From sequence record OX090893: a stretch of 64,000 nt of DNA, one strand, 5' to 3'. Under the pieces are notes generated by a model, which made no database searches, was not told the DNA's origin, and saw only the letters and a list, made by a program, of their open reading frames with translations. This DNA is from Escherichia phage vB_Eco_PATM. Numbering within the stretch: the stretch's first letter is position 1; each line of letters starts with the position of its first letter. A program made the position numbers and the translations under genes. Shown in pieces: positions 21,350 through 25,217 of this stretch.

Positions 21350-21460
21350 ATGTCTACAGAAATTATTTTTGGCTTATCTGTTTTTATTGCTATTGTATCT
21401 TTTGTATGCGGTTATACACTAGGTTACAGATCAAGAAAAAATATTGTAAAAACTAGTTGA
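21350..21460 (+). CDS. Small hydrophobic single-TM peptide (36 aa), not in ORF track
   Basis: Manual translation MSTEIIFGLSVFIAIVSFVCGYTLGYRSRKNIVKTS with RBS AAGGAA 6 nt upstream. Confidence 0.3.
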   Translation: MSTEIIFGLSVFIAIVSFVCGYTLGYRSRKNIVKTS

Positions 21461-21486
21461 CAACATAGCTAGTTATTTGCTAAGAT
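21457..21486 (+). promoter_or_regulatory. Sigma70-like promoter (TTGACA-18-TAAGAT)
   Basis: Hexamers upstream of the 21516 ORF. Confidence 0.45.
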
Positions 21487-21515
21487 AAGCACAAGTTAAA
21501 CAAAAGGAGAAAACT

Positions 21516-21782
21516 ATGACAGAAAATACTTATGGTAAAGAATTGATTGAGAAGCACGTATTGATTGATAATAAAGGTGGAGCAATCTTTCTTTTTGATC
21601 CTGAATCAGTTCTTACTGAAAACGAAAATGGTAGCGTTAGCCTTAAAACAGAAAGTTTGGTAATTGACTTCCTTGCTCTTCTGGATGAAATGGGGCTTCC
21701 TCACGAAGAAGAAGCAGCTATTGCTTTGATTACAGTTCTTCTGGAGAAACGCGAAGCTGGTGAAATGACCCAGTATGCTTAA
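21516..21782 (+). CDS. Hypothetical protein (88 aa)
   Basis: ORF with RBS AAGGAG; ends immediately before the first tRNA. Confidence 0.45.
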   Translation: MTENTYGKELIEKHVLIDNKGGAIFLFDPESVLTENENGSVSLKTESLVIDFLALLDEMGLPHEEEAAIALITVLLEKREAGEMTQYA

Positions 21783-21789
21783 TATTCAA

Positions 21790-21865
21790 GGTTCCATAGC
21801 TCACTGACGAGAGCGCACACCTCATAAGTGTCGAGGGCAGGGATTGTAACCCTGGGGAACCACCA
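21790..21865 (+). tRNA. tRNA, anticodon CAT (Met/Ile2-type), atypical T-loop
   Basis: Hand-folded cloverleaf: acceptor GGTTCCA/GGGAACC, D-stem GCTC/GAGC, anticodon loop CTCATAA, encoded CCA; T-loop ATTGTAA is non-canonical. Confidence 0.55.
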
Positions 21866-21896
21866 TTTAAAAGGAGGTGCTATGCATCTCCTATAT

Positions 21897-21982
21897 GCAA
21901 GTGTGGTGGAATTGGTGATACACATTGTGCTTAAAACGCAACGCTTAAATGCTTGAGGGTTCGAATCCCTCCACTTGCACCA
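21897..21982 (+). tRNA. tRNA-Leu (anticodon TAA)
   Basis: Acceptor GCAAGTG/CACTTGC, anticodon loop CTTAAAA, long variable arm, T-arm GAGGGTTCGAATCCCTC, encoded ACCA. Confidence 0.75.
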
Positions 21983-21984
21983 AC

Positions 21985-22090
21985 GCCTAGTAGGGTATTT
22001 GGTAATTCCGAGGCCATCAAAGCCTGAAAAATATGTTAGACCACTTTGTCTAACTAAATACGAAATATGGTTCGATTCCATAACTAGGCT
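21985..22090 (+). tRNA. Atypical tRNA-like element (106 nt; perfect acceptor and T-arm but about 30 nt extra internal sequence)
   Basis: Acceptor GCCTAGT/ACTAGGC and T-arm TATGG-TTCGATT-CCATA are canonical, but the interior has a 7-bp hairpin GTTAGAC-N6-GTCTAAC and no clean anticodon arm; no encoded CCA. Confidence 0.35.
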
Positions 22091-22124
22091 TCAATTTAAA
22101 TAATAATTTTTTAGTAAAAATATC

Positions 22125-22153
22125 TTGACATTTACTTAGTTTTTTGTTATAGT
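22125..22153 (+). promoter_or_regulatory. Sigma70-like promoter (TTGACA-17-TATAGT)
   Basis: Near-consensus hexamers 11 nt upstream of the next tRNA-like gene. Confidence 0.55.
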
Positions 22154-22164
22154 TACTGTGAAAA

Positions 22165-22246
22165 CGGGGTGTATCTCACCTGACTTCTAATCAGGCGTTA
22201 ACCGAGTAATTGGAGTATGCAGGTTCGAATCCTGTCACCCCGACCA
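22165..22246 (+). tRNA. Atypical tRNA-like gene, anticodon loop CTTCTAA (TCT, Arg-like); D-arm not foldable by eye
   Basis: Acceptor CGGGGTG/CACCCCG, perfect anticodon arm CCTGA-CTTCTAA-TCAGG, T-arm GCAGG-TTCGAAT-CCTGT, encoded CCA; only 7 nt between acceptor and anticodon stem, 23 nt variable region. Confidence 0.4.
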
Positions 22247-22310
22247 AAAAAGTTTTAAAAACTACTTGACAAGCAAGATAGTTTTATGTTAGATTTAAAG
22301 TATGATAACG

Positions 22311-22400
22311 GGAAGGTAGGGCGCAGCGGTGCGCAACCAGGTTTGAACCCTGGCCCATTGTAGCGATACGGTGATGGTTCGACTCCATTATCTTCCTCCA
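22311..22400 (+). tRNA. tRNA-Ser (anticodon TGA)
   Basis: Acceptor GGAAGGT/ATCTTCC, anticodon arm CCAGG-TTTGAAC-CCTGG, long variable arm, encoded CCA. Confidence 0.75.
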
Positions 22401-22418
22401 AATTCGCTTAGGAGCTTT

Positions 22419-22571
22419 ATGAATTATAAAACTATTGGACAGGTTGTTACCGGAGTTAAGATTGTAAATAATAAAGTTGTTTATGAGTATTCTAATCTTC
22501 AACAATCTGAAGATGGTAAGAATATTCGTATGGTAAAATCAGAACAAAAAGATTCCGGTTGTTTTGAATAA
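22419..22571 (+). CDS. Small hypothetical protein (50 aa) between tRNA genes
   Basis: ATG at 22419 preceded by RBS AGGAG; the longer ORF-track version starts inside the tRNA. Confidence 0.3.
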   Translation: MNYKTIGQVVTGVKIVNNKVVYEYSNLQQSEDGKNIRMVKSEQKDSGCFE

Positions 22572-22579
22572 TTAAGAAC

Positions 22580-22665
22580 GGTAGATTGGTGAAATGGTAG
22601 CCACAACAGTTTGCTAAACTGTCGTCGGAAACGGCGTGTAGGTTCAAGTCCTACATCTACCGCCA
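22580..22665 (+). tRNA. tRNA-Ser (anticodon GCT)
   Basis: Acceptor GGTAGAT/ATCTACC, anticodon arm ACAGT-TTGCTAA-ACTGT, long variable arm, T-arm GTAGG-TTCAAGT-CCTAC, encoded CCA. Confidence 0.75.
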
Positions 22666-22715
22666 AGTTATCTTTAATGTAGCTTGTTGCTCTTAGTTGC
22701 TTGGTGTAACTTTTT

Positions 22716-22790
22716 GGAAGGATGGCTGCAACCATCTTACTTTAATAGAGTAAACTTTCGGCAGATGGCCCCCACCATCTTACCGATACC
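22716..22790 (+). repeat. Two related hairpins sharing CCATCTTAC (GGATGG-CTGCAA-CCATCTTAC and AGATGG-CCCCCA-CCATCTTAC)
   Basis: Seen directly in the inter-tRNA spacer; function unknown. Confidence 0.4.
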
Positions 22791-22835
22791 TCATAGTTAG
22801 TGGTGCGAACACTGGCTATTTTAAAGATAATTTAT

Positions 22836-22911
22836 ACATCGTTAGCTTAGTTGGTAGAGCAAGGGGCTTTTAACTCCAAGGTCGAAGGTTCGAATCCTTC
22901 ACGATGTACCA
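22836..22911 (+). tRNA. tRNA-Lys (anticodon TTT)
   Basis: Acceptor ACATCGT/ACGATGT, D-loop AGTTGGTA, anticodon loop CTTTTAA, T-arm GAAGG-TTCGAAT-CCTTC, encoded CCA. Confidence 0.7.
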
Positions 22912-22916
22912 AACAC

Positions 22917-23003
22917 GTAGGTATCGCATAGCGGCAATTGCTGGAGACTGTAAATCTCCTGCCCTTCGGGGCTTCGTTGGTTCGAGTCCAACTACCTGCA
23001 CCA
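22917..23003 (+). tRNA. tRNA-Tyr (anticodon GTA)
   Basis: Acceptor GTAGGTA/TACCTGC, anticodon arm GGAGA-CTGTAAA-TCTCC, long variable arm, encoded CCA. Confidence 0.7.
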
Positions 23004-23010
23004 AATTAAA

Positions 23011-23095
23011 GATGGATTGGCCTAGTGGTTGGGCGACGGACTGTTAATCCGTGAACGAAAGTTCTAGCAAGGTTCAAATCCTTGATCCATCGCCA
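23011..23095 (+). tRNA. tRNA with anticodon GTT (Asn) and an unusually long hairpin variable arm
   Basis: Acceptor GATGGAT/ATCCATC, anticodon arm ACGGA-CTGTTAA-TCCGT, variable hairpin GAAC-GAAA-GTTC, T-arm CAAGG-TTCAAAT-CCTTG, encoded CCA. Confidence 0.5.
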
Positions 23096-23099
23096 AATA

Positions 23100-23167
23100 G
23101 TGCTTGTAGAGTTAATAGAAACCTCTAGAATTTTCTAGAATTGTAGGTATCAAATCCTACCAAGCAA
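23100..23167 (+). pseudogene. Degenerate tRNA-like element (anticodon arm replaced by the palindrome TCTAGAATTTTCTAGA)
   Basis: Acceptor-like TGCTTG/CAAGCA, D-stem AGAG/CTCT and a T-arm-like GTAGG-TATCAAAT-CCTAC, but the central hairpin has a 4-nt loop and no anticodon loop; no CCA. Confidence 0.3.
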
Positions 23168-23174
23168 ATATTTT

Positions 23175-23249
23175 GCTCCTATCGTATAACGGCTATTACG
23201 GTTGCCTTGTAAGCAACTTATCAGGGTTCGAGTCCTTGTGGGAGCACCA
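23175..23249 (+). tRNA. tRNA-Thr (anticodon TGT)
   Basis: Acceptor GCTCCTA/TGGGAGC, anticodon arm GTTGC-CTTGTAA-GCAAC, T-arm CAGGG-TTCGAGT-CCTTG, encoded CCA. Confidence 0.7.
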
Positions 23250-23270
23250 ATTTAACTCTAAAGGAGTGTA

Positions 23271-23595
23271 TGTGACAGAAAAAGAGTTAGAGAAATATTT
23301 TAATATCAATGTTTTCGATGGTTTTGATGATATTGAAGATGTTGAAAGATATTATGAAGTAGAGTTAGATAAGGATAACATTGTAATTCTTTCTGCCACT
23401 TATGATTGTGCATATTATGAAGGTGAATCTCACGTTTATTTTTATGATATGAAAACATCTTTGTTTTATGAAGTACACGCATATCATTGTTCTTGTTATG
23501 GTTTAGAAGGTCAGTGGGAACCTGAAGAAATAGGTGATTTGGACTTTACTATTGCATATCTAAACAGACGTGGTGCATCTACTATTTTAAAATAA
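23271..23595 (+). CDS. Hypothetical protein (about 108 aa) inside the tRNA island; probable GTG start
   Basis: RBS AAGGAG then GTG at 23271; the longer ORF-track version starts inside tRNA-Thr. Confidence 0.4.
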
Positions 23596-23609
23596 ATATC
23601 AAAAGCCTC

Positions 23610-23639
23610 TTGACAAAGGGGCTAATAATATGTTAGAGT
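23610..23639 (+). promoter_or_regulatory. Sigma70-like promoter (TTGACA-18-TAGAGT)
   Basis: Hexamers upstream of tRNA-Gly. Confidence 0.45.
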
Positions 23640-23650
23640 AATATTGTTAA

Positions 23651-23725
23651 GCGGGTATAGTGTTAATGGTAGCATATGAGGTTTCCACCCTCCAGGTGCA
23701 GGTTCAAGTCCTGTTACTCGCTCCA
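23651..23725 (+). tRNA. tRNA-Gly (anticodon TCC)
   Basis: Acceptor GCGGGTA/TACTCGC, anticodon loop TTTCCAC, T-arm GCAGG-TTCAAGT-CCTGT, encoded CCA. Confidence 0.7.
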
Positions 23726-23824
23726 AGATTATTTAAATGGAATCGCTAGAGAAAATTTCTCTTTTCGCTCATGGTTTTCTCCTTCAAACTCTAGCGGTTC
23801 TTTTTAAGTGATTTTTAGTTTTAT

Positions 23825-23899
23825 TGGAGATTAGCCTAGTGGGAAGGCAACGGCCTTTGAAGTCGTGATGACTAGGTTCGATTCCTAGATCTCCAGCCA
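23825..23899 (+). tRNA. tRNA-Gln (anticodon TTG)
   Basis: Acceptor TGGAGAT/ATCTCCA, anticodon arm ACGGC-CTTTGAA-GTCGT, T-arm CTAGG-TTCGATT-CCTAG, encoded CCA. Confidence 0.7.
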
Positions 23900-23941
23900 A
23901 TTAATTGCATAGCATGAGTATTTCTCATTGGTTAAAAGGAG

Positions 23942-24307
23942 ATGCAAGTGAATTGTGAACATTGTGGTAGTGAGTTTACTTTGATAAAAGGTCATGGTGG
24001 ACAAAACAGATCATACTGTTACACTTGTATTCCAGAAGGTTTAGATAAACAAGTACGCACAAGATTACATCAAGAGCTTAGAAGAGAGCGATCTCATAAG
24101 ATGAAACTTGATTTAGGTTGCAAAGTGTGTGGTTATGCTAAATGTGCAGTAGCACTAGAATGGCATCACCCAGAGGACGATAAGAAACACGATCCATCAA
24201 ATGCAATCAAAAGATCTTGGTCTGCTTACTTAGAAGAGACTGAAAAGTGTATCTTACTGTGTGCCAATTGTCATAGAGAAGTACATGCTGGTCTTATACA
24301 GGTTTAA
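23942..24307 (+). CDS. HNH homing-endonuclease-like protein embedded in the tRNA cluster
   Basis: 121 aa; N-terminal CEHCG zinc finger; HNH core LEWHHPEDDKKHDPSNAIKR ... LLCANCHREVH; RBS AAAGGAG upstream; stop abuts tRNA-Pro. Confidence 0.75.
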   Translation: MQVNCEHCGSEFTLIKGHGGQNRSYCYTCIPEGLDKQVRTRLHQELRRERSHKMKLDLGCKVCGYAKCAVALEWHHPEDDKKHDPSNAIKRSWSAYLEETEKCILLCANCHREVHAGLIQV

Positions 24308-24308
24308 T

Positions 24309-24384
24309 CAGTGCGTAGCGCAGTTGGTAGCGTGGGAGCCTTGGACGCTTCAGGTCGCAGGTTCGAGTCCTGCCGCACTGACCA
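24309..24384 (+). tRNA. tRNA-Pro (anticodon TGG)
   Basis: Acceptor CAGTGCG/CGCACTG, D-arm GCGC-AGTTGGTA-GCGT, anticodon arm GGAGC-CTTGGAC-GCTTC, T-arm GCAGG-TTCGAGT-CCTGC, encoded CCA. Confidence 0.75.
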
Positions 24385-24389
24385 AATTT

Positions 24390-24464
24390 GCAGAGATAGC
24401 TGAGACGGATTAGTGCTACCCTGAAAAGGTAGAAAGGATGGATCGTTACCATCTCTCTGCACCA
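24390..24464 (+). tRNA. tRNA-Phe (anticodon GAA), atypical T-loop
   Basis: Acceptor GCAGAGA/TCTCTGC, anticodon arm CTACC-CTGAAAA-GGTAG, T-arm GATGG-ATCGTTA-CCATC, encoded CCA. Confidence 0.6.
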
Positions 24465-24541
24465 AATAACACCATCCAAGGAGTAGACTTGGTTAACTGT
24501 CAATAGCACATTGAGGCTTCTTACAGTGGTGTACTTATTAT

Positions 24542-24626
24542 GGCTAAGTGGTGGAATGGTATACACGATACGCTTAGAACGTATTGCCCCAGGGGATTGT
24601 GAGTTCGAGTCTCACCTTAGCTACCA
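24542..24626 (+). tRNA. tRNA-Leu (anticodon TAG)
   Basis: Acceptor GGCTAAG/CTTAGCT, anticodon arm ATACG-CTTAGAA-CGTAT, variable hairpin CCCC-A-GGGG, T-arm GTGAG-TTCGAGT-CTCAC, encoded CCA. Confidence 0.75.
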
Positions 24627-24714
24627 TATCTAAGAGATATCATAGGGTTTGCAACGGATATCCACCGTCCTATTAAGGATACCACGCCAAGACGGGTTGT
24701 AAAGGGTTAGCCAT

Positions 24715-24790
24715 TGATAGTGTGAAGCTGGCGTTTCGAGTGCTTTCATAAGGCATTGCGAGAAGAGTTCGATTCTCTTACTATCAACCA
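24715..24790 (+). tRNA. tRNA with anticodon CAT (Met/Ile2-type)
   Basis: Acceptor TGATAGT/ACTATCA, anticodon arm GTGCT-TTCATAA-GGCAT with wobble pairs, T-arm AAGAG-TTCGATT-CTCTT, encoded CCA. Confidence 0.55.
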
Positions 24791-24805
24791 AATTATTACA
24801 GATTG

Positions 24806-24884
24806 TGCGGGATAGAGGAGTCTGGTCGTCCTCGCCAGTTTCATATGCTGGAGATCATCGGTTCGAATCCGATTCCCGCCTCCA
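24806..24884 (+). tRNA. tRNA with anticodon CAT and unpaired 1:72 position (initiator-like)
   Basis: Acceptor TGCGGGA/TCCCGCC with mismatch at the first pair, D-arm GAGG/CCTC, anticodon arm CCAGT-TTCATAT-GCTGG, T-arm ATCGG-TTCGAAT-CCGAT, encoded CCA. Confidence 0.5.
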
Positions 24885-24942
24885 ATAAATACCTCCCTTC
24901 TGGTGTAATGATTAAGTTACATTGACACTTCAAGGAACTCAT

Positions 24943-25025
24943 AGCCGGGTAGATTTAAAAGAGTATGGTACTCAATATGGCTCCAAACCATAGATCAGGG
25001 GGTTCGATTCCTCACCTTGCTGCCA
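24943..25025 (+). tRNA. tRNA-Trp-like (anticodon CCA), irregular acceptor/D region
   Basis: Clear anticodon arm TATGG-CTCCAAA-CCATA and T-arm GGGGG-TTCGATT-CCTCA with encoded CCA; 5' acceptor only pairs 6 of 7 and D-region is long; start coordinate approximate. Confidence 0.4.
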
Positions 25026-25030
25026 ATTAT

Positions 25031-25106
25031 TGTGGTATCGTACAGATGGTTAGTACACTCGACCGATAATCGAGAAACAACGGTTCGACTCCGTTTACCA
25101 CGACCA
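25031..25106 (+). tRNA. tRNA-Ile (anticodon GAT)
   Basis: Acceptor TGTGGTA/TACCACG, anticodon arm CTCGA-CCGATAA-TCGAG, T-arm AACGG-TTCGACT-CCGTT, encoded CCA. Confidence 0.6.
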
Positions 25107-25217
25107 AACTCCGTGCCAGCGGTGTCTTCGAAGAACAAGCCTAGTTCCTTCTGAGATGGAGGGGTGCGACTCCTTAACGCACAACATACTACTACTAAAT
25201 ACTTATCAGGAGATATC

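What the first reader, a model, noticed from the sequence alone, without database searches (positions are those of the whole stretch)
21985..23167. Three structurally aberrant tRNA-like elements within the tRNA island
Element 21985-22090 has a perfect 7-bp acceptor stem and canonical T-arm but is 106 nt long, with an internal 7-bp hairpin and no recognisable anticodon arm. Element 22165-22246 has perfect acceptor, anticodon (TCT) and T arms plus encoded CCA, but only 7 nt where the D-arm should be and a 23 nt variable region. Element 23100-23167 keeps acceptor, D- and T-like arms, but its anticodon arm is replaced by the perfect palindrome TCTAGAATTTTCTAGA. They could be decoys, processing signals, intron-containing tRNAs or decaying genes.
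Basis: seen in the sequence. Interest (0 to 1): 0.6.

Follow-up and report, generated by a model that had tools for sequence, protein, structure and literature searches.

The report
Phage tRNA-Arg with rewired D-arm
The three odd tRNA-like elements are real and conserved, and one is an overlooked arginine tRNA, shared by very different phages, in which half of the D-arm has moved to the other side of the anticodon arm.

Summary
Default ARAGORN misses all three. Rfam's tRNA model finds only E2, and only by deleting the D-arm.

- **E2 (22165-22246)** belongs to a family of at least 60 distinct sequences, almost all from phages. A new 3-bp helix (22175-77 with 22204-06) covaries without exception. 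It rebuilds a D-stem from a 3' strand in the normal place and a 5' strand plus D-loop (UAAUUGGAG) moved to after the anticodon arm.
  - Every anticodon in the family reads arginine.
  - C35, U/G36, an invariant A after the GG (A20-like) and mostly A/G73 are retained.
  - E2 fills the Arg(UCU) slot that is empty in these phage tRNA sets, while AGA makes up 28.5% of the phage's Arg codons.
- **E1 (21985-22090)** is a second conserved family. It has a real D-arm, a 4-bp stem with loop CAUCAAA, and a roughly 40-nt variable region.
- **E3 (23100-23168)** is a tRNA-shaped RNA without an anticodon. It occurs only in Stephanstirmvirinae, and the copy here is a degraded form.
- A fourth aberrant element, Trp-like, lies at 24943-25025.

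Expression and charging were not tested.

The parts
21985..22090 (+). E1, a class-II-like tRNA-shaped RNA. Layout: acceptor 21985-91 with 22083-89; A8 G9; D-arm 21994-22009 (GGTA, TTTGGTAA, TTCC); G 22010; 4-bp stem AGGC/GCCT with loop CATCAAA at 22011-25; variable region 22026-65 including the 7-bp hairpin 22035-54; T-arm 22066-82; discriminator T 22090. TCA follows where CCA would be.
   Evidence: Coordinates. Nine family members are 98.8% paired, with 9 of 19 pairs showing compensatory change. Homologs occur in Salmonella phage UTK0002 and in IMG/VR contigs. Phage Paula lacks it through a clean 127-nt deletion.
22125..22153 (+). Sigma-70-type promoter-like site (TTGACA, 17 nt, TATAGT, with TG). 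Its -10 hexamer ends 12 nt upstream of E2.
   Evidence: 11 of 12 consensus matches, the best site in 21400-25400. It is a consensus match only.
22165..22246 (+). E2, a non-canonical tRNA-Arg(UCU). Layout: acceptor 22165-71 with 22236-42; U8 A9 at 22172-73; anticodon arm 22179-95 with anticodon TCT at 22186-88; T-arm 22219-35; discriminator A 22243; CCA 22244-46.
   Evidence: Rfam tRNA 40 bits. Family model R1 86.4 bits. Family alignment A1 and pair counts.
22174..22178 (+). E2 segment T-CTC-A, taken as the equivalent of canonical positions 22-26: the 3' strand of the D-stem plus position 26, lying directly 5' of the anticodon stem.
   Evidence: Pairs 22175-77 with 22204-06 are 100% paired in 60 sequences. 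The middle pair is UA 39, GC 13, AU 7, CG 1; the next is CG 52, GC 5, UA 3. 22178 with 22203 is A.C 37, C.A 10, standard pair 12, other 1.
22196..22203 (+). E2 conserved linker CGTTAACC. The first 7 nt form a bulge with consensus C-R-U-U/C-A-A-N; the last base faces 22178.
   Evidence: Column composition. Its role in the fold is inferred.
22204..22218 (+). E2 transposed half of the D-arm. GAG-T corresponds to positions 10-13, AATTGGAGTA to the D-loop (A14 to G18 G19 A20 to A21), and T to position 48.
   Evidence: Helix covariation. GGAGUAU is invariant even in 49 members found with a pattern that covers only the 5' half. It shares GUAAU(U)GGA with the D-arm of the canonical phage tRNA-Arg of phAPEC8. 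The rival hairpin 22202-05 with 22210-13 is only 71.7% paired, with a double-sided change in just one of 240 cells.
23100..23168 (+). E3, a tRNA-shaped RNA with no anticodon. Layout: acceptor 23100-06 with 23161-67 (G1.A72 mismatch); weak D-like stem GAG/CTC; hairpin on the palindrome 23124-39 with a 4-nt loop; T-stem 23143-47 with 23156-60 around the 8-nt loop TATCAAAT.
   Evidence: The form in W22, phAPEC8 and REC has a perfect acceptor, GG in the D-loop and a longer hairpin. Compensatory changes occur at two acceptor pairs, one T-stem pair and one hairpin pair.
24943..25025 (+). A fourth aberrant tRNA-like gene, outside the finding. Trp(CCA)-like, with an 11-nt connector and a 5-bp stem with a UGG triloop instead of a D-arm, discriminator G73 and an encoded CCA.
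   Evidence: ARAGORN finds it only at a lowered threshold. Homologs with covarying stems occur in phages FKP3, Tr1 and LPML1. Coordinates.

Best explanation
The island encodes, besides 16 standard tRNAs, several conserved tRNA-shaped RNAs that standard annotation misses.

**E2 is the key one.** I read it as a working tRNA-Arg(UCU) whose core is wired differently.
- After U8-A9 the chain enters directly into what is normally the 3' strand of the D-stem, then position 26 and the anticodon arm.
- After the anticodon arm comes a conserved 7-nt bulge, CGUUAAN.
- The 5' strand of the D-stem and the D-loop (UAAUUGGAGUA) follow, and lead into the T-arm.
- All helices of the L-shape, the G18-G19 elbow contact and the arginine identity elements can therefore be kept, while segment 10-21 sits on the other side of the anticodon arm.
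- It would be transcribed from its own promoter, cut by RNase P, charged by the host ArgRS, and used to read AGA. AGA is common in the phage and rare in the host.

What is shown: the secondary structure, the family, its restriction to phages and the arginine-only anticodons. What is inferred: the three-dimensional equivalence, charging and decoding.

**E1** is a member of a second family of tRNA-shaped RNAs, with a long variable region and a shortened anticodon stem. The loop here (CAUCAAA, with A at position 33) makes efficient decoding doubtful.

**E3** is a tRNA mimic without an anticodon, specific to this phage subfamily. It cannot decode, and its role is unknown.
For: **E2 structure**
- Sixty distinct sequences are 94.6% paired, and 19 of 21 pairs carry compensatory change. 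No shuffle of 500 reaches this, and sliding the partners drops pairing to 33-46%.
- The new helix never has an unpaired cell and shows four pair types.
- The rival variable-arm hairpin predicted by energy minimisation fails.

**E2 arginine identity**
- Anticodons are TCT 56, CCT 2, TCG 1 and ACG 1. All have C35 and U or G at 36.
- An A directly after the GG is invariant, and the discriminator is A or G in 56 of 60.
- This matches the bacterial Arg identity set of A20, C35, U/G36 and A/G73 (PMC9976931).

**E2 fills a slot**
- Among 85 family loci, a separate canonical Arg(tct) occurs in only 2, while Arg(acg) is common. Clusters of 23-26 tRNAs lack Arg(tct).
- The window itself has no other Arg tRNA.

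**Demand for AGA**
- AGA is 28.5% of Arg codons in the window's ORFs, against 5.1% in E. coli O157:H7 (PMC3606486).

**Phage restriction**
- Most of the 98 IMG/VR pattern hits are family members (85 family-bearing loci in all). Only 4 of 89 hits in 185,579 cellular genomes are, and all 4 lie on metagenome-assembled contigs.
- 253 phage records carry it, across Stephanstirmvirinae, Ounavirinae (including Felix O1), Vequintavirinae, jumbo phages and Streptomyces phages.

**Expression signals**
- A strong promoter-like site lies just upstream.
- CCA is encoded in 37 of 60 members.

**E1 and E3**
- for E1; for E3.
Against: - There is no expression, processing or aminoacylation data.
- The three-dimensional equivalence rests on topology and on invariant bases that cannot covary.
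- Most family members were collected with a pattern that fixes TGGAGTATG, which inflates the apparent invariance there. The scan with a pattern covering only the 5' half relieves this only for the CUC/GAG subclass. One divergent member (L067:13348-13426) has GGAUAG instead.
- A 3-bp helix is weak thermodynamically, and the energy model does not predict it.
- Two loci carry both E2 and a canonical Arg(UCU).
- Nothing explains why the rewired form is preferred to a normal tRNA.
- For E1 and E3 no function is demonstrated. E1 is absent from about half of close relatives. The window's E3 has lost the GG of its D-loop and its first acceptor pair.
Confidence: 0.7

Rival explanations
1. E2 is a replacement tRNA selected for resistance. 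Its rewired core lets it escape a host nuclease or toxin that recognises the D-arm, variable loop or overall core of the host's tRNA-Arg, so translation of AGA survives defence activation. It still decodes, but the reason for the odd architecture is immune evasion rather than codon supply.
For: - Phage tRNAs are known to rescue infection from tRNA-cleaving defences such as PARIS, retron effectors and Septu, which cuts the variable loop of tRNA-Tyr (PMC11464382, PMC11555353, PMC13096335, PMC10264068).
- The family is phage-restricted and spreads across unrelated phage groups.
- Homing-type HNH endonuclease genes are often adjacent.
- The strict conservation of an unusual core needs some explanation.
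Against: - My searches found no defence that targets tRNA-Arg(UCU).
- The anticodon loop, the usual nuclease target, is identical to the host-type CUUCUAA in 49 of 60 members.
- The family spans hosts as different as E. coli and Streptomyces, which would require a very general threat.
Confidence: 0.2
2. The elements are non-decoding tRNA mimics, acting as decoys, sponges or processing signals. They would bind or occupy tRNA-recognising host factors such as RNase P, CCA-adding enzyme, tRNA-modifying toxins or nucleases, or they would guide cleavage of the polycistronic tRNA transcript.
For: - E3 has no anticodon loop at all, yet keeps acceptor and T stems through compensatory changes.
- E1 has A33, a 4-bp stem and no intact CCA here.
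- Both sit within a few nt of true tRNAs.
- Further unannotated tRNA-like elements accompany E1 homologs in other phages.
Against: - For E2 this does not explain why anticodons vary only among Arg anticodons with C35 and U/G36, nor why A20-like and A/G73 are kept.
- Adjacent tRNAs need no spacer element for RNase P processing.
- Relatives lacking E1 keep the same neighbours.
Confidence: 0.3
3. The elements are decaying tRNA genes with no function, kept only because the island is young or recombines as a block.
For: - The window's E3 is a degraded version of the W22/phAPEC8 form: an 8-nt deletion, GG lost from the D-loop and a G1.A72 mismatch.
- E1 has lost its CCA (TCA here, CCC in VEcB) and is deleted in Paula.
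- The fourth element folds no better than shuffled sequence (z = 0.24).
Against: - E2 is excluded. It is conserved with compensatory change across at least 60 sequences from unrelated phages.
- E1 is conserved between a myovirus and an N4-like podovirus, with 9 compensated pairs.
- Even E3's hairpin outer stem changed C-G to U-A together.
Confidence: 0.1

Closest known systems
Canonical bacterial and phage tRNA-Arg(UCU), for example E. coli argU and the phAPEC8 or T5-like phage tRNA-Arg
   Same: - Same 7-bp acceptor, 5-bp anticodon stem, loop CUUCUAA, 5-bp T-stem with UUCGA loop, A/G73 and CCA.
- D-loop-like GUAAU(U)GGA sequence with an A after GG.
- The T-arm and 3' acceptor are 93.5% identical to T5-like phage tRNA-Arg.
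   Different: - Segment 10-21 (D-stem 5' strand plus D-loop) lies after the anticodon arm instead of before position 22.
- There is no ordinary variable loop; a conserved 7-nt bulge takes its place.
- Default ARAGORN misses it in the window, and its rare calls elsewhere are over-long (91-98 nt). Published tRNA lists for this genus have no Arg (PMC12210895).
D-armless mitochondrial tRNAs (for example mt-tRNA-Ser(AGY)) and the engineered 'mini HisT'
   Same: On a linear reading E2 has only 7 nt where the D-arm should be. E. coli's translation machinery can accept a tRNA without a D-arm (PMC11551756).
   Different: E2 is not armless. It keeps a covarying D-stem and a D-loop with GG, so an L-shape with a normal elbow is expected rather than the Y-shape of truly armless tRNAs. 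It also occurs in phages of bacteria, where the 2024 paper states that all known tRNAs are canonical.
Class II tRNAs (Ser, Leu, Tyr, Sec) and other natural non-canonical tRNAs such as allo-tRNAs and tRNAs with 4-bp anticodon stems
   Same: - E1 has a long extra arm with a hairpin, and its relatives score 36-39 bits on Rfam's tRNA-Sec model.
- It has a 4-bp anticodon stem, a feature recently described in bacterial tRNAs (PMC13092985).
   Different: - E1's variable region is about 40 nt, far longer than in class II tRNAs.
- Its discriminator is U, and positions 8 and 14 are swapped to A8 and U14.
- The loop has A33.
- Acceptor and T stems are 7 and 5 bp, and the D-arm is a 4-bp stem with an 8-nt loop, which is not the tRNA-Sec form.
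- Family anticodons are UCA, UUU and UAU, none of them class II amino acids.
Stable non-tRNA RNAs of the phage T4 tRNA cluster (species 1 and 2, rnaC and rnaD). This comparison is from my own knowledge and was not tested here.
   Same: Small RNAs encoded among phage tRNA genes, with tRNA-like ends and no known function. This is similar in context to E1 and E3.
Candidate structured RNA 'DNAVirus_2961' of Fremin et al. 2023 (PMC10690425)
   Same: It is a covarying RNA motif from IMG/VR that only sometimes overlaps ARAGORN tRNA-Arg calls. The E2 family behaves the same way: ARAGORN of 85 loci as over-long Arg(tct).
   Different: Identity could not be checked, because neither the figure nor the supplement is held. 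That paper gives no architecture, no arginine-identity analysis and no rewiring model.

Membership tests
tRNA (Rfam RF00005) | Score at or above the curated gathering threshold of 29 bits | tested here: met
   E2 scores 40 bits, E = 5.7e-5 over the 64-kb window. E1 and E3 give no hit even at E <= 10, so for them the feature is not met.
tRNA (canonical cloverleaf) | A contiguous D-arm (stem 10-13 with 22-25 enclosing the D-loop) between position 9 and the anticodon arm | tested here: not met
   E2 has 7 nt there. The Rfam alignment deletes 15 D-arm positions. The D-stem partner strand lies 3' of the anticodon arm. E1 does meet this feature.
tRNA (canonical cloverleaf) | 7-bp acceptor, 5-bp anticodon stem with a 7-nt loop and U33, and 5-bp T-stem with a 7-nt T-loop, all supported by covariation | tested here: met
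   E2 family: acceptor 99.3%, anticodon stem 95.3% and T-stem 99.0% paired; U33 is invariant. E1 fails on the anticodon stem (4 bp) and has A33. E3 fails on the anticodon arm and has an 8-nt T-loop.
Bacterial tRNA-Arg identity set (A20, C35, U/G36, A/G73; PMC9976931) | C35 and U/G36 in the anticodon | tested here: met
   60 of 60 family members. Anticodons are TCT, CCT, TCG and ACG only.
Bacterial tRNA-Arg identity set (A20, C35, U/G36, A/G73; PMC9976931) | A20 in the D-loop, next to G18 G19 | tested here: inconclusive
   An invariant A follows the invariant GG (window 22214). That it occupies the A20 pocket of ArgRS is inferred from the proposed mapping, not shown.
Bacterial tRNA-Arg identity set (A20, C35, U/G36, A/G73; PMC9976931) | Discriminator A or G | tested here: met
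   A 28, G 28, T 3, C 1. The window has A at 22243.
Functional tRNA | Stable expression, 5' and 3' processing, aminoacylation and use on the ribosome | not testable with these tools
   Only indirect support is available: a promoter-like site, an encoded CCA, the vacant Arg(UCU) slot and codon usage.
tRNA-Sec (Rfam RF01852), considered for E1 | Gathering score of 47 bits; 8-bp acceptor with 5-bp T-stem; 6-bp D-stem with a 4-nt loop; G73; loop CUUCAAA | tested here: not met
   The window's E1 gives no hit at E <= 10. Its relatives score 36-39 bits, below threshold and similar to an ordinary tRNA-Ser. E1 has a 7-bp acceptor, a 4-bp D-stem with an 8-nt loop, U73 and A33.
Intron-containing tRNA, considered for E1 | A cloverleaf restored after removal of an intron from the anticodon loop | tested here: not met
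   ARAGORN's tRNA-Asn model with an 18-nt intron has a mismatched anticodon stem. The stem it discards (22011-14 with 22022-25) covaries in relatives.
D-armless tRNA, considered for E2 | No D-stem or D-loop equivalent anywhere in the molecule | tested here: not met
   A covarying helix plus a UAAUUGGAG segment is present.

The most novel reading that the evidence does not exclude
The E2 family shows that the tRNA L-shape can be built in nature with a different strand topology: the D-arm is assembled in trans within the chain, and segment 10-21 sits after the anticodon arm. This fold would be fully active with the normal bacterial ArgRS, EF-Tu and ribosome. Phages would have spread it horizontally because the rewired core escapes host factors that recognise canonical tRNA cores. 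E1, E3 and the Trp-like element would be further members of a hidden layer of non-canonical phage tRNAs and tRNA mimics.
Probability: 0.35. Interest if true: 0.9.

Novelty: new variant of a known kind. Interest (0 to 1): 0.8.

Why it matters
[quoted passage not shown] A natural, widespread tRNA-Arg with a transposed half of the D-arm would contradict this inside bacterial cells. It would also be a ready-made test of which parts of the tRNA core the synthetase, EF-Tu and the ribosome actually need.
- **Annotation.** Published tRNA lists for these phages miss an arginine tRNA. The element is present in Felix O1 and in 253 phage records, and in 60 sampled records only a handful label it, as 'tRNA-OTHER' or 'tRNA-Leu'. 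Studies of codon usage against tRNA content in these phages therefore start from incomplete tRNA sets.
- **Possible uses and leads.** The scaffold may be useful for designing orthogonal tRNAs. If the rewiring is an escape from tRNA-targeting immunity, it points to a defence mechanism that has not yet been described.

Tried and rejected
- **Energy-minimum fold of E2.** It predicts a variable-arm hairpin CCGA/UUGG. I rejected it because it is 71.7% paired, has a double-sided change in only one of 240 cells, and has 31 of 60 cells unpaired at one position.
- **ARAGORN intron model for E1**. Rejected, see the membership test.
- **tRNA-Sec or opal suppressor for E1.** TGA is a normal stop in 6 of 59 ORFs, followed by another stop within 2-20 codons, so there is no sign of read-through extensions. 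The Sec-specific features are absent.
- **A loose pattern scan** (GTATC..TTCTA..TTAA) returned almost only chance matches in AT-rich coding DNA. One scan was wasted.
- **A partner protein for E2.** I clustered ORFs within 3 kb of E2 in 54 distinct loci. No family is shared by more than 7 loci; several are HNH endonucleases.
- **More E3 diversity.** A pattern scan of IMG/VR found only the two known forms, so covariation evidence for E3 stays thin.
- **Whether rV5's annotated tRNA-Arg is of the E2 type.** A megablast with the Vequintavirinae copy found only itself, so this is unresolved.
- **Literature.** Nine full-text searches found no description of this architecture. The review of non-canonical tRNAs (PMC7609411) does not mention phages. 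The library is limited to open-access papers, so prior description cannot be excluded.
- **Fremin et al. 2023.** Their supplement was not available, so I could not compare motif DNAVirus_2961.
Full report
**Context.** The window matches phi92/VEcB-like coliphages (Justusliebigvirus, Stephanstirmvirinae) at 97-98% over the tRNA island. ARAGORN finds 16 tRNAs between 21790 and 25106, none for arginine and none at the three elements. The same 16 are listed in the literature for this genus from tRNAscan-SE plus ARAGORN (PMC12210895).

**Checking the observation.** All three elements are present as described.
- Rfam's tRNA model reaches its threshold only for E2, at 40 bits. Its alignment replaces 15 D-arm positions with 4 nt and inserts 20 nt in the variable region.
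- E1 and E3 give no Rfam hit even at E <= 10.
- ARAGORN reaches E1 only through an 18-nt 'intron' with a mismatched stem, and E3 only with mitochondrial models.
- The aberrations are therefore not hand-folding errors. One correction is needed: E1 does have a D-arm and a stem-loop in the anticodon position.

**E2: the family.**
- blastn finds E2 at 80% coverage or more in about 250 phage records from unrelated groups: Justusliebigvirus, Felix O1-like Ounavirinae, Vequintavirinae, jumbo phages such as 121Q, T5-like Klebsiella phages and Streptomyces phages.
- A pattern from the 3' half (TGGAGTATGNNGGTTCGA) found 98 stretches in IMG/VR, most of them family members.
- The same pattern over 185,579 bacterial and archaeal genomes gave 89 matches, of which only 4 are family members, all on metagenome-assembled contigs. 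The family is essentially confined to phages.
- A pattern restricted to the 5' half found 50 matches, 49 of them family members, and all 49 keep GGAGUAUG.
- In 60 sampled GenBank records, none annotates the element as tRNA-Arg. Two call it 'tRNA-OTHER' and phage 121Q calls it 'tRNA-Leu'.

**E2: the structure.**
- Sixty distinct sequences align almost without gaps, one column per window base (alignment A1).
- Acceptor, anticodon and T stems covary strongly. The 7-nt connector, the anticodon loop and the 23-nt 'variable region' are almost invariant, apart from three positions on each side that change together.
- The connector CUC (22175-77) pairs with GAG (22204-06). The middle pair is U-A 39, G-C 13, A-U 7, C-G 1. 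The next is C-G 52, G-C 5, U-A 3. No cell is unpaired.
- For the whole structure, 94.6% of cells are paired and 19 of 21 pairs have compensatory changes. No shuffle of 500 reaches this, and sliding the partners drops pairing to 33-46%.
- The neighbouring position (22178 with 22203) is A.C in 37, C.A in 10, a standard pair in 12 and other in 1. It has the highest mutual information among unpaired columns.
- The hairpin that energy minimisation predicts inside the variable region is only 71.7% paired, with a double-sided change in just one cell, and it competes for the same bases. I reject it.
- A covariance model built on this structure separates family members (57-92 bits; 68-92 for full-length copies) from ordinary tRNAs (42 bits or less). 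In the window it finds only E2, at 86.4 bits.

**E2: interpretation of the fold (inferred).**
- The strand 3' of the new helix reads GAG-U-AAUUGGAGUA-U. The canonical tRNA-Arg(UCU) of the related phage phAPEC8 has the D-arm GUGU-AAUGGAUA-GCAC.
- The E2 segment therefore looks like D-stem 5' strand plus D-loop (positions 10-21, with G18 G19 and an A at position 20), followed by one base and the T-stem.
- The connector U-CUC-A looks like positions 22-26, directly in front of the anticodon stem as in any tRNA.
- On this reading the order 8-9 / 10-21 / 22-26 / anticodon arm / variable loop has become 8-9 / 22-26 / anticodon arm / CGUUAAN bulge / 10-21.
- The D-stem still stacks on the anticodon stem, with 22178.22203 in the place of the 26.44 pair. 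The GG can still reach the T-loop, and U8 and A9 are kept.
- This cannot be tested by covariation because the relevant bases are invariant. It needs probing or a solved structure.

**E2: function.**
- The anticodons are TCT 56, CCT 2, TCG 1 and ACG 1. All read arginine and all have C35 and U/G36.
- The A after GG is invariant, and the discriminator is A or G in 56 of 60.
- These are the bacterial arginine identity elements (PMC9976931).
- In 85 family loci ARAGORN often finds a canonical Arg(acg), but a separate canonical Arg(tct) in only two. Clusters of 23-26 tRNAs lack Arg(tct).
- AGA is 28.5% of Arg codons in the window's long ORFs, against 5.1% in E. coli O157:H7 (PMC3606486).
- The best promoter-like site of the region (TTGACA, 17 nt, TATAGT) ends 12 nt upstream.
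- CCA is encoded in 37 of 60 members.
- No protein gene is consistently adjacent, so host enzymes would have to serve it.
- My conclusion is that E2 is the phage's tRNA-Arg(UCU). Why the rewired form is kept is open. Possibilities are escape from a host factor that recognises canonical tRNA cores, or a frozen accident spread by horizontal transfer, given that HNH endonuclease genes are frequent neighbours.

**E1.**
- blastn finds it in 30 Justusliebigvirus records and, at 72% identity, in the N4-like Salmonella phage UTK0002.
- Pattern scans add members from IMG/VR.
- Nine aligned members are 98.8% paired, and 9 of 19 pairs have compensatory changes in the acceptor, D, anticodon-position and T stems.
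- Shared features:
  - A8 with a U at the start of the D-loop, that is, positions 8 and 14 swapped;
  - D-loop UUUGGYAA;
  - a G on each side of a 4-bp stem with a 7-nt loop;
  - 'AAAA', then a hairpin of variable sequence, then GAAUACAUAG;
  - a canonical T-loop, and discriminator U or A.
- The loop is CAUCAAA in the window's subgroup, which on paper is anticodon UCA but with A33. In others it is UUUUUAA or UUUAUAA, with a normal U33.
- TGA behaves as an ordinary stop in the window.
- Relatives score 36-39 bits on tRNA-Sec, below threshold and no better than a tRNA-Ser. The Sec-specific features are absent.
- The window's copy has TCA instead of CCA, and phage Paula lacks E1 through a clean 127-nt deletion.
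- E1 is thus a real, conserved but dispensable RNA of a second non-canonical family. Whether this subgroup decodes is doubtful.

**E3.**
- The window form occurs only in Justusliebigvirus, at 99-100% identity.
- The same Asn-Thr spacer in phage W22 and in Phapecoctavirus (phAPEC8, REC) holds a fuller form. It has a perfect 7-bp acceptor, GG in the D-loop and a 21-nt irregular hairpin with a tetraloop in place of the anticodon arm. Its T-loop, UAUCGAAU, is likewise 8 nt.
- Between the two forms, two acceptor pairs, one T-stem pair and one hairpin pair changed on both sides.
- The window form has an 8-nt deletion that leaves the perfect palindrome, has lost the GG and has G1.A72.
- Neither form has an anticodon loop, so E3 cannot decode. 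It is either a tRNA mimic of unknown role or a relic that is decaying in this lineage.

**Beyond the finding.**
- A fourth unannotated element (24943-25025) is Trp(CCA)-like, with an 11-nt connector and a 5-bp stem with a UGG triloop instead of a D-arm. It has covarying homologs in other Stephanstirmvirinae and in an Ounavirinae phage.
- Sub-threshold Rfam hits mark further such elements beside E1 homologs.
- Phage tRNA islands appear to hold a layer of conserved non-canonical tRNA-like genes.

**What is known.**
- I found no description of the E2 architecture in nine full-text searches.
- A 2020 review of non-canonical tRNAs does not mention phages.
- A 2024 paper states that all known bacterial tRNAs are canonical.
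- A 2023 catalogue of viral structured RNAs lists a motif that sometimes overlaps ARAGORN tRNA-Arg calls and may be the same family. I could not check this.
- The library covers open-access papers only.

**Verdict.** E2 is a new architectural variant of tRNA with strong comparative support and untested biochemistry.

Noticed in passing
window 24943-25025 (+): Fourth unannotated aberrant tRNA-like gene. It is Trp(CCA)-like, with discriminator G73 and an encoded CCA, but has an 11-nt connector and a 5-bp stem with a UGG triloop instead of a D-arm, plus a C4.U69 mismatch. Homologs with covarying stems occur in phages FKP3, Tr1 and LPML1, and none is annotated.
   Followed up: partly
window 22666-22835: The spacer between tRNA-Ser(GCU) and tRNA-Lys holds two similar hairpins (GGAAGGATGG...CCATCTTAC and GGCAGATGG...CCATCTTACC). 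It is about 40 nt longer than in Paula and VEcB, which suggests a local duplication.
   Followed up: no
window 21990-22116, compared with L002 (phage Paula): Paula lacks E1 through a clean 127-nt deletion that keeps the first 5 nt of E1 and the E2 promoter. E1 is present in only about 30 of about 55 close relatives.
   Followed up: yes
L067:13348-13426: A divergent E2-type Arg(UCU) with UAAUUGGAUAGAACAU before the T-arm, scoring 37.6 bits on model R1. It sits in the same contig as a CCU-type family member, so the family is broader than the search patterns captured.
   Followed up: partly
L318:1410-1491; L371:701-772, 1922-2009 and 2599-2681: Further unannotated tRNA-like elements, seen as sub-threshold tRNA-Sec hits of 29-33 bits, lie next to E1 homologs in other phage tRNA islands.
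   Followed up: no
window 23942-24307 (+); L003:446-844; L004:501-860: HNH endonuclease genes sit inside tRNA islands: between tRNA-Gln and tRNA-Pro in the window, and next to or overlapping the E2 homolog in Felix O1-like and Vequintavirinae phages. This is compatible with spread of tRNA segments by homing.
   Followed up: partly
window 22266-22295 and 23610-23639 (+): Additional strong promoter-like sites (TTGACA, 18 nt, TAGATT or TAGAGT) lie directly upstream of tRNA-Ser(UGA) and tRNA-Gly. The island seems to be transcribed in several short units.
   Followed up: no
L014:6792-6871: A tRNA-like element with normal acceptor, D and T arms and the TGGAGTATG motif, but no obvious anticodon arm. 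It scores 41 bits on model R1.
   Followed up: no
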